From a virus (lineage: Duplodnaviria; Heunggongvirae; Uroviricota; Caudoviricetes): a stretch of DNA of 35,845 bases. The position numbers and the translations under genes are program-made. Below, one piece after another: positions 1 to 6,871 of this stretch; within the stretch, counting starts at the first letter, position 1; each line of letters opens with the position of its first letter. The notes below the pieces were generated by a model. The model saw nothing but the letters and a program-made list of their open reading frames with translations. It was not told the DNA's origin and ran no database searches. The stretch is taken from the IMG/VR virus record IMGVR_UViG_2671180473_000015. One strand, 5' to 3'.

Positions 1-573
1 ATGTTTTGCGAAGAAAAAGTAGCTCAAATGGCTGCATACCTACTTCTTAAGCGAGGTGGGCGCATGGCATATCTGAAATTGATGAAGCTGCTCTATCTGT
101 CTAACCGCAAGTCGATTTTGAAGCATGGCAGGATGATCGGCGAAGATAGCCTTTACTCTATGAAATTTGGTCCAGTCATGTCGAATACGCTGAACTTGAT
201 TCGTGGTAAGGCTGAAGGTATTGGTGACTACTGGTACAACCTGATAGAGACGAACGGGCATGATGTGTTGTTGCGTTCAGATCCGAGGGAAATGGATGCA
301 GACGAGGTCTTTGATGAGTTGAGCCGTGCAGATATCCGGATTTTAGATGAAATCTATTCTCTGTATGGGCATATGAACCGATTTGATCTCGCAAACATGA
401 CGCATTTAGAAAGCGTTTGTCCAGAGTGGCACAATCCTGGCAATTCTCGTAAGCCTATAGACCTGAAAGAAATGCTGATCAGTGAGGGTAAAAGCGAGGA
501 TGAGGCTAATCGTATAATTGGCAAAATGGAAGAATCTCAGAAACTTAAGGAATTTTCTTTGCAATTATCATGA
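1..573 (+). CDS. Panacea-domain (DUF4065) phage-associated protein, SocA/GepA-like putative antitoxin
   Basis: 190-aa ORF starting at window position 1 (N-terminus may lie upstream). The segment AQMAAYLLLKRGGRMAYLKLMKLLYLSNR matches the conserved helix of DUF4065/Panacea proteins as I recall them. Stop overlaps the next ORF start (ATGA at 570-573). Confidence 0.6.
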   Translation: MFCEEKVAQMAAYLLLKRGGRMAYLKLMKLLYLSNRKSILKHGRMIGEDSLYSMKFGPVMSNTLNLIRGKAEGIGDYWYNLIETNGHDVLLRSDPREMDADEVFDELSRADIRILDEIYSLYGHMNRFDLANMTHLESVCPEWHNPGNSRKPIDLKEMLISEGKSEDEANRIIGKMEESQKLKEFSLQLS

Positions 574-989
574 CGGATTATCAGCCATACAGGAAAGGAA
601 CTGTGCTTGCCCCAACTGGGCCATGCAATCATCTTCATGTGATTTGTAATGATCCTGTTTATTACCCCGTTAACGATTGTTATTGTGTTTTAGTTGTTAA
701 TATTTCTAGTATCAAGGATGGTGTCCCCCACGATCCGTCTTGCGTCTTGAATTCTGGTGATCATCGCTTTATCAAGCATCCAAGTTATGTTGTTTACGCT
801 GAAGCTATAATTTGGCGAGTGGATAACATGGTTAGAAAGCAGCGATCGGGTGAGATTTCCGTTCATGATGATATGCCAGAAGCTACATTCAATAGAATTC
901 TGGACGGTTTTGATATATCTGATGAAGTTACGCCAAAGAACCTTAAATTTAAAAATAAATATTGCGTATCATCTATTGATGATGAGTAA
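570..989 (+). CDS. hypothetical protein translationally coupled to the Panacea-domain gene; candidate toxin partner
   Basis: 139-aa ORF whose ATG overlaps the upstream stop (ATGA). No family recognised. Contains an R-x6-H motif (RSGEISVH) reminiscent of HEPN, which is speculative. AT-rich. Confidence 0.45.
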   Translation: MTDYQPYRKGTVLAPTGPCNHLHVICNDPVYYPVNDCYCVLVVNISSIKDGVPHDPSCVLNSGDHRFIKHPSYVVYAEAIIWRVDNMVRKQRSGEISVHDDMPEATFNRILDGFDISDEVTPKNLKFKNKYCVSSIDDE

Positions 990-1028
990 ACAACAGGAAT
1001 TGTTTCGGTATAGCTTCTGGAGTTTTCT

Positions 1029-1202
1029 ATGGAAGATCAAAAAGCAACCAAGCCACAGGTTAAGTTCGACACAATGAAAGCATTCGCAGGTATGGGTGCT
1101 GCTGTTGAAGTTCTGATGAAGGCTGCTCCTAATGCGTTCACTCACGCTACTGTCTCTGGTAAAGAGCAGCAGGGTAAGCTTCGTCGTCGCAAAGCAGCAT
1201 GA
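1029..1202 (+). CDS. small hypothetical protein (57 aa)
   Basis: ATG at 1029, TGA at 1200-1202, immediately followed by a strong intrinsic terminator. Below the 60-aa cut-off of the ORF track. No recognisable family. Confidence 0.3.
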   Translation: MEDQKATKPQVKFDTMKAFAGMGAAVEVLMKAAPNAFTHATVSGKEQQGKLRRRKAA

Positions 1203-1220: not shown

Positions 1221-1248
1221 GAAAACCCGCCTTTAGGCGGGTTTTTTC
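1221..1248. terminator. bidirectional rho-independent terminator
   Basis: A-run, stem CCCGCC / GGCGGG with loop TTTA, then T-run (gaaaacccgcctttaggcgggtttttt). Sits between convergent genes ending at 1202 (+) and 1250 (-). Confidence 0.6.
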
Positions 1249-1567: not shown

Positions 1568-2383
1568 TTACTTATTCATTTCAATAATATTATTTTCTAT
1601 CATTGATTTATTTAAAACCAAAGAAGGAGCAAGATGGTTGTCTATTTTAAACAATGCATAACTTTTAAACTGTTGGTGATATCCGTAACTAATAAGGATG
1701 CTAGAAAAATCTCTTAATTCATCTTCTTTTAAAAAATTAAAATGAAATGGGTTGTCACCATTTATGAACAATGAAACATCTATTATGCAGTATTTCTCTC
1801 CGTTGTCATTTGCATAGAAAAAAATATAAGACATTCTGTTTGTTAAGACAATGCCATTAAATTTTCTTATGTCTGTAGCTATTTTGTTTTCCATGTTTGG
1901 TGCTACATATTTATTTTCAGAAATACATTTAATTTCATCTCCAGATGTCGTGATTATATAAAAATGAAACTTATCAGAAATATCTAACTTAACTACGCCA
2001 TCATTATTGTAAAGGCTGCTAAATTTTGGTGGTTCAACTTTTAAAGAATCATAGTTCTTTAAAAGAAGAGGGGAGTCAAATTTAATAACTTGTAGTATCC
2101 CTTTACCTTCAACCTCCATATTGATTGAAGATATAGCAATTGCATTATCTCTTTTATTATTCAGGATTATGGTTGATATATGCATGTCATATATTCTACT
2201 TGCATTTGCTGAATACGACACTGTCACCTTTTTTGATATTTTTTGCACGCCAAAATATATAGTGAAGGCAGCGGCAAGAATAGATAAGAATTTAATGTCA
2301 AATAAGGACCATAGCCACATTAGTTGCTCAATTGCTTCAGAGTTAATCATTTGCTTTACCATTATCGCTGTAATACAACACAT
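1568..2383 (-). CDS. hypothetical single-pass membrane protein encoded in a strongly AT-rich segment (moron-like)
   Basis: Long minus-strand ORF (track 1568..2401 with TTG start; first ATG gives 2383). Hydrophobic N-terminal segment FLSILAAAFTIYFGV followed by a long soluble domain. Local AT content is far above the rest of the prophage. Start codon uncertain (ATG candidates at 2383, 2362, 2350; no clear SD). Confidence 0.5.
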   Translation of the reverse strand: MCCITAIMVKQMINSEAIEQLMWLWSLFDIKFLSILAAAFTIYFGVQKISKKVTVSYSANASRIYDMHISTIILNNKRDNAIAISSINMEVEGKGILQVIKFDSPLLLKNYDSLKVEPPKFSSLYNNDGVVKLDISDKFHFYIITTSGDEIKCISENKYVAPNMENKIATDIRKFNGIVLTNRMSYIFFYANDNGEKYCIIDVSLFINGDNPFHFNFLKEDELRDFSSILISYGYHQQFKSYALFKIDNHLAPSLVLNKSMIENNIIEMNK

Positions 2384-2504
2384 GTGTGTATATATACGCA
2401 ATGCAATTATTTTGCAAGTGCTTCATTTACTATCAATAGCTACGTCACGTTATTGTTTAATGGTTCTTTATAGGGGCGGCAATAGTTAAAATTATCGCTT
2501 CCGT

Positions 2505-6038: not shown

Positions 6039-6871
6039 ACAGTTTAACGGCAAATAACCGTTTGTCGCAACAGCTGGTGGTCAGCGTCGCTGAACACCTG
6101 TTGTTACGGCATGAATGCAGATTACCAAATCACCTGGCTGTAAGTAACCACAGAGAACTTTACCTGACTGTGGGGGGCGAGTTGTGCAGGAACTTAACCG
6201 CTGGTTTCGTGACGGAAGAGGACTTTATGTTCATGTTATTCGTTGGGAGCCAGAAACACAGCGCGTTATCTATCTTCGCAAAGACTACCCGCATGAGTGC
6301 TTTAGTCCTTTGTGGAAATTCAGGCGTGATTTTGTTGAGTGTGAAGGACCACCAGCACATTGATTCTGCCATTCCGGGACGTTACACTGTTCAGGCACCT
6401 TATAAAGCGGGTGCCGGGATTGGCGTCCTGGAATTGATCAAGGCGATATATGACGCGCCAGCGTCTTTTTTATCGTCCGCATTTGCTCACATCAAAGTTA
6501 TGGTGGGCTGGGCGGGGGCATCGAAAGATGCGCCGGTTTCCTTGATCACCGGTTACGCCAACCCCGTTCAGTTCACCACCAGCGAAATTGGCGTTTCCGG
6601 TGGTGGAAGTATTTCACCGATCAAGGAGGCTGCCATCATGGCTACTGTCCCAGCCCTCACTCGTCTGAATGATGAAGACTTACATAAACTCAGTTATGTA
6701 ACAACTGCACTACGTGCTCTGCGCAAGGTAACTCTTTCGGATCCGCAGGCACATCAGGTTCTGGTAGAAACCCTTCTTAACTTGCAAGCTGAACGTATTC
6801 GTCTGGCGGATAAGGCTAATTTTCATATTCACCGTCTCCTGAATATCAGCGGAGGGCATCGTCATGCTTAA
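6035..6871 (+). CDS. hypothetical protein (gene structure uncertain)
   Basis: 278-codon open frame with SD GGAG upstream of the ATG at 6035, translationally coupled at both ends. No family recognised. An alternative 59-aa ORF in another frame (6184..6363) starts just after a G6 homopolymer, so a frameshift or overlapping genes cannot be excluded. Confidence 0.35.
   Translation: MNSLTANNRLSQQLVVSVAEHLLLRHECRLPNHLAVSNHRELYLTVGGELCRNLTAGFVTEEDFMFMLFVGSQKHSALSIFAKTTRMSALVLCGNSGVILLSVKDHQHIDSAIPGRYTVQAPYKAGAGIGVLELIKAIYDAPASFLSSAFAHIKVMVGWAGASKDAPVSLITGYANPVQFTTSEIGVSGGGSISPIKEAAIMATVPALTRLNDEDLHKLSYVTTALRALRKVTLSDPQAHQVLVETLLNLQAERIRLADKANFHIHRLLNISGGHRHA

What the first reader, a model, noticed from the sequence alone, without database searches (positions are those of the whole stretch)
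1..989. Panacea-domain gene translationally coupled to an unrecognised downstream ORF: candidate toxin-antitoxin or anti-phage module at the prophage edge
The first gene carries the DUF4065/Panacea signature helix (AAYLLLKRGGRMAYLKLMKLLY). Panacea-domain proteins are established as antitoxins (SocA/PanA type) paired with very diverse toxins. Its stop overlaps the start of a 139-aa ORF (ATGA) of no family I recognise, which contains an R-x6-H motif (RSGEISVH) compatible with, but not proof of, a HEPN-like RNase. The pair sits in an AT-rich accessory segment outside the core phage operons.
Basis: partly seen in the sequence, partly recalled or inferred. Interest (0 to 1): 0.7.

Follow-up and report, generated by a model that had tools for sequence, protein, structure and literature searches.

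The report
Prophage PanA–PanT toxin-antitoxin pair

Summary
Window 1-573 encodes a 190-aa Panacea/DUF4065 protein (Pfam PF13274, E 1.8e-18). Its stop overlaps (ATGA, 570-573) the start of a 139-aa ORF (570-989).

The protein belongs to a large family with no Pfam model (2,721 cluster representatives). A Panacea gene lay directly upstream in every locus with enough upstream DNA to tell, including distant relatives.

This family is toxin cluster "T6" of Kurata et al. 2022 (PNAS). The link rests on the same genomes, gene order and -4/-1 junctions. A Pseudomonas homologue's antitoxin also starts with the same ten residues as the validated P. moraviensis PanA. That validated T6 toxin is neutralised and bound by its PanA and specifically inhibits translation.

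In E. coli the pair is a swappable cargo cassette next to the dusA attachment site, in 205 of 5,426 complete genomes.

Still open: the chemistry of the family-invariant His21/Asp55/Cys58/His65/Ser72/Tyr76, and any anti-phage role.

Verdict: a real TA module, a new member of a known kind, of modest interest.

The parts
1..573 (+). panA: 190-aa antitoxin candidate, a stand-alone Panacea protein with no N-terminal DNA-binding domain
   Evidence: ORF. Pfam PF13274, 67.9 bits. Annotated as a Panacea domain-containing protein, WP_000458583.1. The start is conserved in 21 orthologues.
79..411 (+). Panacea (DUF4065) domain as delimited by Pfam, residues 27-137
   Evidence: matches profile positions 1-109 of 113.
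412..570 (+). C-terminal extension of PanA (residues 138-190) outside the Pfam model. It carries the conserved motif P-x-G-S-S-x-P-I and a charged stretch. Inferred candidate toxin-neutralising element.
   Evidence: Not covered by PF13274. Conserved in length and pattern across orthologues. Its role is inferred only.
570..573 (+). ATGA stop/start overlap (translational coupling). No Shine-Dalgarno sequence lies at a usable distance from ATG 570.
   Evidence: Sequence. The ATGA junction is kept in most of 23 loci, replaced by TAATG in two, and by a spacer with its own AAGGGA in one.
570..989 (+). panT: 139-aa toxin candidate with a MazF/Kid/CcdB-like fold, in cluster T6 of Kurata et al. 2022
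630..632 (+). His21 codon: the only residue invariant in 106 diverse family members. In non-significant global alignments it falls next to the MazF catalytic Arg29 position.
   Evidence: The alignments are not statistically supported.
732..797 (+). Loop and strand carrying the other near-invariant polar residues: Asp55 (732-734), Cys58 (741-743), Gly63, His65 (762-764), Phe67, Ser72 (783-785) and Tyr76 (795-797)
   Evidence: Conserved in at least 90 % of 106-127 representatives that are at most 50 % identical to each other. The loop is modelled at pLDDT about 95.
843..866 (+).
   Evidence: At position 92 the commonest residues are A, E and Q. Position 99 is H, K or R.
1029..1202 (+). 57-aa ORF (phrog_2741) with its own GGAG ribosome-binding site (1019-1022). 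It shares the transcription unit but is not part of the TA pair, because it is also present in prophages that lack panAT.
1221..1246 (.). GC-rich hairpin with T runs on both sides. An intrinsic terminator that closes the panA-panT-orf57 unit and the convergent xis gene.
   Evidence: L001 9221-9246 corresponds to window 1221-1246; sequence.

Best explanation
Window 1-989 is a type II toxin-antitoxin module of the PanAT class. The toxin belongs to cluster T6 of Kurata et al. 2022.

How it most likely works:
- panA and panT are transcribed together and translated by coupling through the ATGA overlap, so the antitoxin is made first and in step with the toxin.
- PanT folds into a MazF/Kid/CcdB-type SH3-like barrel. 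When free, it stops growth by blocking protein synthesis, most likely as a sequence-specific endoribonuclease.
- PanA binds PanT directly and keeps it inactive. Binding would be through its Panacea core, its conserved about 50-residue C-terminal extension, or both.

The pair travels as a self-contained cargo cassette in prophages. Here it lies in the slot between the dusA attachment site and xis, where it is expressed in the lysogen.

There it most plausibly stabilises the prophage, or acts as an abortive-infection or exclusion device that is triggered when PanA is lost or senses an invader.

Shown here: gene structure, domain, fold, conserved pairing, homology to the published cluster, and cassette mobility.

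Taken from the literature on a homologue (P. moraviensis): toxicity, neutralisation, complex formation, and translation as the target.

Inferred: RNase chemistry, the neutralising surface, the promoter, and the biological role.
For: (1) PanA carries PF13274 at 67.9 bits against a 25.7 cut-off.

(2) A PanA homologue ends at or within a few bases of the start of the ORF2 homologue in all 24 loci from different species that had enough DNA. The same holds in distant family members where upstream DNA exists and in prophages of Enterobacter, Proteus and Vibrio.

(3) Both genes are under purifying selection.

(5) The link to cluster T6 has several parts:
- Dataset S1 of PMC8832971 lists T6 pairs in Pantoea septica LMG 5345 (junction -4), Yersiniaceae 2016Iso4 (-1) and Proteus vulgaris FDAARGOS_556 (-4).
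- My genome scan found ORF2 homologues in the first two of those genomes, with ATGA and TAATG junctions respectively.
- The Proteus cluster carries AYY accessions and a -4 junction.
- Pseudomonas phage Sirocco carries a homologous pair: PanA 46 % identical (E 8e-41), toxin 48 % identical (E 3e-29).
- That PanA begins IFSEQKVAQ, the residues Kurata et al. restored to the validated P. moraviensis PanA, and the pair has the same -1 junction.

(6) For the P. moraviensis T6 pair the paper reports toxicity rescued by PanA, a PanA:PanT pull-down complex, and specific inhibition of 35S-Met incorporation.

(7) Cassette behaviour: homology with prophages lacking the pair resumes at window 1016/1019, just after the panT stop. 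These prophages carry a different 177-aa gene in the same slot.
Against: - No experiment exists on this E. coli pair, and no paper mentions its accessions.
- In the Kurata screen several predicted PanT toxins were not toxic in E. coli, so toxicity cannot be assumed for every predicted pair.
- Sequence-level membership in MazF/PemK fails. None of 106 diverse members hits PF02452 at E <= 0.1. There are no significant PDB sequence hits. hhalign against a 113-sequence MazF profile is not significant.
- Foldseek E-values are modest (best 6.8e-3, TM 0.48/0.60).
- The canonical MazF catalytic Arg is not evident. The family instead has its own invariant His/Asp/Cys/His set, so RNase chemistry is not established.
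- RNase activity has not been shown for any T6 member; the paper infers it from HHpred and labelling.
- No PADLOC defence model matches.
- The promoter call is weak: 5 sites found against 7.1 expected by shuffling.
- I matched T6 by genome, junction and name, not by identical accession numbers.
Confidence: 0.75

Rival explanations
1. The module and neutralisation are as above, but PanT is not a MazF-type RNase. It would use the MazF-like barrel as a scaffold for a different chemistry built on the family-invariant His21, Asp55, Cys58 and His65 (plus Ser72 and Tyr76). That could be a bound metal ion or a Cys-His-Asp-type catalytic centre, so the toxin would modify or cleave a translation component in another way.
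For: These residues are invariant or at least 90 % conserved in 106-127 representatives that share only about 30 % identity. Canonical MazF sequences have no counterpart. No member matches PF02452, and profile-profile comparison with MazF is not significant. The 48-71 loop that carries three of the residues is long, has no regular secondary structure, and is still modelled at pLDDT about 95. RNase activity has not been demonstrated for any T6 toxin.
Against: I could not obtain model coordinates, so clustering of these residues in space is untested. His is a common general acid/base in RNases, and Ser/Thr47 aligns, without statistical support, with the MazF catalytic Thr. An RNase with His in place of Arg therefore explains the same data. 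The validated homologue inhibits translation, as MazF does.
Confidence: 0.2
2. The pair is conserved but does not behave as a toxin-antitoxin system in E. coli. ORF2 would be non-toxic, or only conditionally active, and the two proteins would work together in some other prophage function.
For: Several in-silico PanAT pairs, including an E. coli prophage pair of another cluster, were not toxic when tested. No test of this pair exists.
Against: A member of the same toxin cluster is toxic and is neutralised and bound by its PanA. The two genes are strictly linked across orders of Proteobacteria, with coupled translation. The fold is that of a toxin. The pair moves as an autonomous cassette.
Confidence: 0.12
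3. PanT is a CcdB-like gyrase poison rather than a translation inhibitor.
Against: Ten MazF/Kid structures score higher, and the best Foldseek hits in the solved-structure library are all MazF. The validated T6 homologue inhibits 35S-Met incorporation specifically, not thymidine incorporation.
Confidence: 0.03
4. PanT is a HEPN-type RNase that uses the R-x6-H motif.
For: RSGEISVH is present at residues 92-99.
Against: The fold is a beta-barrel, not a helical bundle. No HEPN structure is among the listed hits. R92 is replaced by A, E or Q and H99 by K or R in most relatives. There is no HEPN Pfam hit.
Confidence: 0.01

Closest known systems
PanAT, toxin cluster T6 (Kurata et al. 2022, PNAS 119:e2102212119). 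Validated member: Pseudomonas moraviensis PanA WP_083354365.1 / PanT WP_083201923.1.
   Same: A stand-alone Panacea antitoxin of about 185-190 aa with no N-terminal domain. Antitoxin-first gene order. A -4 or -1 stop/start overlap. A toxin of about 130-140 aa with no CDD or Pfam domain but a MazF/PemK-like fold. The same family is found in the genomes listed for T6. The Pseudomonas homologue shares 46-48 % identity and the same PanA N-terminus.
   Different: This E. coli prophage pair was not in their genome sample and has not been tested. It sits in a dusA-integrating lambdoid prophage, whereas the validated pair was scored 'NotPhage'. I did not compare it directly with the P. moraviensis sequences.
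MazEF / Kid-Kis (PemIK) type II TA endoribonucleases (Pfam PF02452)
   Different: The antitoxin is unrelated: Panacea rather than the AbrB-type MazE. There is no detectable sequence or profile similarity to PF02452. The long beta1-beta2 loop of MazF is replaced by a tight turn, and the Arg of the catalytic pair is not evident. The family has its own invariant His/Asp/Cys/His residues and two extra C-terminal helices.
SocAB of Caulobacter crescentus (SocA, the founding Panacea protein)
   Same: The antitoxin carries the same Pfam domain.
   Different: SocA is a ClpXP adaptor that promotes degradation of SocB, a DnaN-binding toxin placed in a different cluster (T10). The window's PanA scores 13.5 bits against the NCBIfam SocA equivalog cut-off of 190, and its toxin is unrelated to SocB.
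ToxIN / AbiQ / CptIN type III abortive-infection toxins
   Different: Those toxins are neutralised by repeated RNA antitoxins. There is no repeat array here, and the antitoxin is a protein.

Membership tests
Panacea / PanA antitoxins (Pfam PF13274, DUF4065) | Significant match to the SocA_Panacea model above the gathering score | tested here: met
   67.9 bits against a 25.7 cut-off, E 1.8e-18, residues 27-137.
Panacea / PanA antitoxins (Pfam PF13274, DUF4065) | Encoded in a two-gene locus (gap of at most 100 nt) that is conserved in at least two species (the criteria of Kurata et al.) | tested here: met
   A PanA homologue lies directly upstream in all 24 loci with enough DNA and in distant members.
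Panacea / PanA antitoxins (Pfam PF13274, DUF4065) | Neutralises and binds the cognate toxin | not testable with these tools
   Known only for homologues.
PanT toxin cluster T6 (Kurata et al. 2022) | Homology to listed T6 toxins | tested here: met
   ORF2 homologues were found in the T6-listed genomes Pantoea septica LMG 5345 and Yersiniaceae 2016Iso4, with the listed junctions of -4 and -1. The Proteus vulgaris FDAARGOS_556 cluster also fits. A Pseudomonas pair has the MIFSEQKVAQ PanA start and a -1 junction. The link is indirect, because accession numbers could not be matched one to one.
PanT toxin cluster T6 (Kurata et al. 2022) | Antitoxin-first order with overlapping or abutting reading frames | tested here: met
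   ATGA at 570-573, conserved in most loci.
PanT toxin cluster T6 (Kurata et al. 2022) | Toxic on expression, with translation inhibited | not testable with these tools
   Reported for the P. moraviensis member only.
MazF/PemK/Kid endoribonucleases (PF02452) | SH3-like barrel fold of the CcdB/MazF superfamily | tested here: met
MazF/PemK/Kid endoribonucleases (PF02452) | Sequence match to the PemK_toxin profile | tested here: not met
   None of 106 diverse members hits at E <= 0.1. hhalign probability is below 1 %. A profile search of PDB sequences found nothing significant: no match with the 106-sequence profile and only two unrelated chains at E about 0.5 with the 30-sequence one.
MazF/PemK/Kid endoribonucleases (PF02452) | Catalytic Arg and Thr/Ser pair (E. 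coli MazF R29/T52; from my own knowledge of the family) | tested here: inconclusive
   Ser/Thr is conserved at position 47. In non-significant global alignments an invariant His21 sits beside the Arg position, which is itself occupied by an invariant Leu22.
MazF/PemK/Kid endoribonucleases (PF02452) | Endoribonuclease activity | not testable with these tools
   Needs biochemistry.
HEPN RNases | All-alpha-helical HEPN fold | tested here: not met
   The model has five main beta-strands forming the barrel, a short sixth, and three helices. No HEPN hits.
HEPN RNases | Conserved R-x4-6-H motif | tested here: not met
   R92 and H99 vary across the family.
SocAB (NCBIfam NF047745 SocA equivalog) | Score above the equivalog cut-off | tested here: not met
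   13.5 bits against a cut-off of 190.
Catalogued anti-phage defence systems (PADLOC-DB 2.0) | Match to any defence-protein model | tested here: not met
   No hit at E <= 0.1 for either protein.

The most novel reading that the evidence does not exclude
The T6 PanT family (about 2,700 sequence clusters, with no Pfam model) would not be a MazF-type RNase. It would be a MazF-shaped enzyme with a new active site built from the invariant His21, Asp55, Cys58 and His65, either a metal centre or a Cys-His-Asp triad. In this prophage it would act as an abortive-infection effector, released when the Panacea protein senses an incoming phage.
Probability: 0.15. Interest if true: 0.6.

Novelty: new member of a known kind. 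Interest (0 to 1): 0.3.

Why it matters
It gives a name and a testable function to a 'hypothetical protein' present in about 4 % of complete E. coli genomes and in several temperate phages. It corrects that protein's annotated start codon. It also shows that the slot next to the dusA attachment site of these lambdoid prophages exchanges cargo genes.

The scientifically open part is narrower. No T6 toxin has a demonstrated biochemical activity, and the family has a conserved His/Asp/Cys/His set that canonical MazF lacks. No PanAT pair of this type has been tested for phage defence or prophage stabilisation. An E. coli prophage copy would be a convenient system for both questions.

Tried and rejected
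- **HEPN reading.** Rejected on fold and motif conservation.
- **Sequence routes to a known toxin family.** All were empty: Pfam, NCBIfam and PADLOC on the protein; Pfam on 106 family members; profile searches of PDB sequences.
- **hhalign against MazF.** That profile was built from a database search which confirmed the typed E. coli MazF at 100 % identity. Neither was significant, and in hindsight the MazF database search added little.
- **PanA folded from a single sequence.** Unusable, pLDDT 42.
- **AlphaFold-DB fold search.** Not available.
- **Operator-like inverted repeats upstream of panA.** None found.
- **Promoter scan.** It gives one candidate, but no more sites than shuffled sequence.
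- **Literature search for the two accessions.** Nothing found.
- **SocAB-type (ClpXP adaptor) mechanism.** Considered and set aside: the SocA equivalog score is far below cut-off, and T6 PanA forms a stable complex with its toxin.

Full report
**1. The observation**

The window opens with an ATG-initiated ORF, 1-573 (+), 190 aa. Its stop overlaps, in the tetranucleotide ATGA (570-573), the start of a second ORF, 570-989 (+), 139 aa.

The first protein matches Pfam PF13274 (SocA_Panacea) at 67.9 bits against a gathering score of 25.7, over residues 27-137. It is annotated as a Panacea-domain protein in RefSeq E. coli genomes.

The second protein has no Pfam, NCBIfam or PADLOC match. It falls in a PHROG of unknown function.

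Both reading frames are real genes. Against the Kosakonia and Pluralibacter orthologues, non-synonymous divergence is about 0.09. Synonymous divergence is too saturated to compute in three of these four comparisons and is 2.7 in the fourth (dN/dS 0.03).

Position 1 is the genuine start of the first gene, because all orthologues begin MF[CS]E..VAQMAAYLL.

RefSeq starts the second gene at GTG 603. However, the eleven residues upstream of that codon are conserved across genera, and the ATGA junction is kept in most of 23 loci.

**2. Where it sits**

The window is a lambdoid prophage integrated in dusA. In complete E. coli chromosomes a 105-bp 5' fragment of dusA lies about 250 bp upstream of the first gene, on the same strand.

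In the free phage Lys8385Vzw the order is integrase (minus strand), attP with a dusA-like 5' end, panA, ORF2, a 57-aa ORF, then the PrtN-type excisionase on the opposite strand.

A hairpin terminator at 1221-1246 closes the three-gene unit.

The full 1,250-bp segment is present in 205 of 5,426 complete E. coli genomes. About 360 further genomes, including O157:H7 and O111:H8, and also phage mEp460, match only from position 1016/1019 onwards, which is just after the stop of ORF2. They carry an unrelated 177-aa gene in the same slot.

The two genes are therefore an exchangeable cargo cassette. The segment has 38-45 % GC.

**3. What the 139-aa protein is**

A word-indexed search found 62 close clusters, all in Gammaproteobacteria. 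A profile search of 1.84 billion representatives found 2,721 proteins at E <= 1e-3 and 942 at E <= 1e-10. This is a large family that no curated library covers.

AlphaFold2 with a 30-sequence alignment gave a confident model, mean pLDDT 89.7 and pTM 0.83. It has five main strands forming a barrel and a short sixth strand, followed by three helices.

- Foldseek against the PDB listed MazF structures in the first forty places (best E 6.8e-3, TM 0.48/0.60).
- Foldseek against viral models put 'PemK-like' proteins first.

The HEPN idea is excluded. The fold is wrong for HEPN.

At the sequence level the family is not recognisably MazF:
- No member of a 106-sequence sample hits PF02452.
- Profile searches of PDB sequences found nothing significant.
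- hhalign against a MazF profile is not significant.

**4. Conserved partnership**

A genome scan returned 25 loci from different species. In every locus with enough DNA (24 of them), a PanA homologue of 37-87 % identity ends at or within a few bases of the start of the ORF2 homologue.

The same holds for distant family members at E about 1e-19 to 1e-23, where upstream DNA was available.

The cassette occurs at different places in different prophages:
- inside the lambda-type tail gene cluster in Enterobacter and Klebsiella;
- at a prophage end beside tail-fibre genes in Proteus, in one case next to an Abi_2 gene;
- beside the integrase and repressor genes at the edge of a Vibrio prophage.

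No third gene is conserved.

**5. It is a published type**

Kurata et al. (PNAS 2022, PMC8832971) surveyed Panacea neighbourhoods and defined 88 toxin clusters.

Their cluster T6 is described as EndoA/PemK/MazF-like by HHpred. It has antitoxin-first order, mostly -4 or -1 junctions, and no N-terminal domain on PanA.

Their T6 rows include Pantoea septica LMG 5345 (-4), Yersiniaceae bacterium 2016Iso4 (-1) and Proteus vulgaris FDAARGOS_556 (-4). My scan found ORF2 homologues in the first two genomes, with ATGA and TAATG junctions respectively. The Proteus cluster fits as well.

Pseudomonas phage Sirocco carries a homologous pair, with PanA 46 % and the toxin 48 % identical to the window's proteins. 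Its PanA begins IFSEQKVAQ, the very residues the authors restored to the N-terminus of the validated P. moraviensis PanA. Its junction is -1, as in their row.

I could not match accession numbers one to one, so this link is strong but indirect.

For the P. moraviensis T6 pair the paper reports three things: toxicity neutralised by PanA, a PanA:PanT complex in pull-downs, and specific inhibition of 35S-methionine incorporation.

The later NetFlax paper (PMC10440598) shows that stand-alone Panacea domains can neutralise directly, while extra domains do so in other PanAs. It proposes a sensory role for Panacea.

**6. How it most likely works**

*Shown here:* the coupled gene pair, the Panacea domain, the MazF-like fold, the strict linkage and the cassette mobility.

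*From the literature on a homologue:* direct binding, neutralisation and translation arrest.

*Inferred:*
- PanT is an endoribonuclease.
- The conserved C-terminal extension of PanA (residues 138-190, outside the Pfam model) contributes to neutralisation. This is by analogy with the MazE tails (my own knowledge of the family) and the Phd-C helices of another PanA.
- Transcription starts at a candidate promoter about 125 nt upstream of panA, outside the window, and/or reads through from the truncated dusA. No terminator is predicted in between. The promoter scan is no better than chance.
- The biological role is prophage stabilisation or abortive infection/exclusion.

**7. What remains odd**

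Across 106-127 representatives that share about 30 % identity, His21 is invariant. Leu22, Asp55, Cys58, Gly63, His65, Phe67, Ser72, Tyr76, Gly113 and Ser117 are conserved at 90 % or more, and position 47 is always Ser or Thr.

Canonical MazF has no such His/Asp/Cys/His set, and the catalytic Arg is not evident.

Three of these residues lie in a long loop (48-71) with no regular secondary structure that is nevertheless modelled at pLDDT about 95.

These residues could be an RNase site with His as the acid/base, a structural metal site, or a different chemistry altogether. I could not test whether they cluster in space.

**8. Verdict**

The finding is real and the TA reading is right. The HEPN guess is wrong, and the pair belongs to a described class with a validated member. 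It is a new, untested member of a known kind.

Interest is modest. The open points are the toxin's chemistry and the module's role in the lysogen.

Noticed in passing
window 1-1018 compared with L043 2281-2814, L044 2284-2817 and L028 2784-3317: The slot between the dusA attachment site and the 57-aa ORF is a cargo swap site. About 360 complete E. coli genomes (O157:H7 and O111:H8 among those sampled), and also phage mEp460 (gp23), carry a single 177-aa ORF (WP_000956557.1) there instead of panAT. That ORF has no Pfam, NCBIfam or PADLOC match.
   Followed up: partly
window 1568-2401 (-): A very AT-rich (28-32 % GC) ORF of 260-277 aa with a hydrophobic N-terminus. It matches phrog_14996 (unknown function) and has no Pfam, NCBIfam or PADLOC match. 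It occupies the place where related prophages carry a 3'-5' exonuclease and DUF551 genes, so it may be another accessory or defence-type cargo gene.
   Followed up: partly
window 603-989 (RefSeq WP_014640052.1): PGAP starts the toxin gene at GTG 603 (128 aa), which loses 11 conserved N-terminal residues and hides the ATGA coupling. GenBank phage records use ATG 570.
   Followed up: yes
L045 1486-1884 (Pseudomonas phage Sirocco, OR683410.1): The PanT homologue (132 aa, TAATG junction with the upstream PanA gene) is not annotated in the record. A 44-aa antisense ORF is annotated in its place.
   Followed up: partly
window 6395-6471 (+) and 6496-6583 (+): Rfam matches above gathering score to isrK (64.2 bits) and to C4 antisense RNA (82.3 bits). 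This is the P1/P7-type immunity RNA pair, lying in the early region near the ash-family gene.
   Followed up: no
window 1029-1202 (+): A 57-aa ORF (phrog_2741, E 8e-36) with its own GGAG ribosome-binding site. It is conserved next to xis in dusA-integrating prophages whether or not panAT is present. Function unknown.
   Followed up: partly
L001 7643-7764, upstream of the window: The truncated host dusA 5' end (a 40-codon remnant) points into panA, with no predicted terminator between them. The phage attP carries its own dusA-like 5' end that restores the gene at the other junction.
   Followed up: partly
L039 3657-4721: In one Proteus genome an Abi_2 (PF07751) abortive-infection gene lies immediately upstream of the panAT cassette at the prophage end.
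   Followed up: no
the protein-collection cluster holding the window's two proteins (not a window feature): The 90 % identity cluster that holds the window's PanA also holds the unrelated 139-aa toxin. This is a clustering oddity, and I did not find its cause. The same cluster also holds a 232-aa 'DUF4065 domain-containing protein' (P0079) from E. coli O121:H19, but I did not examine that sequence.
   Followed up: no
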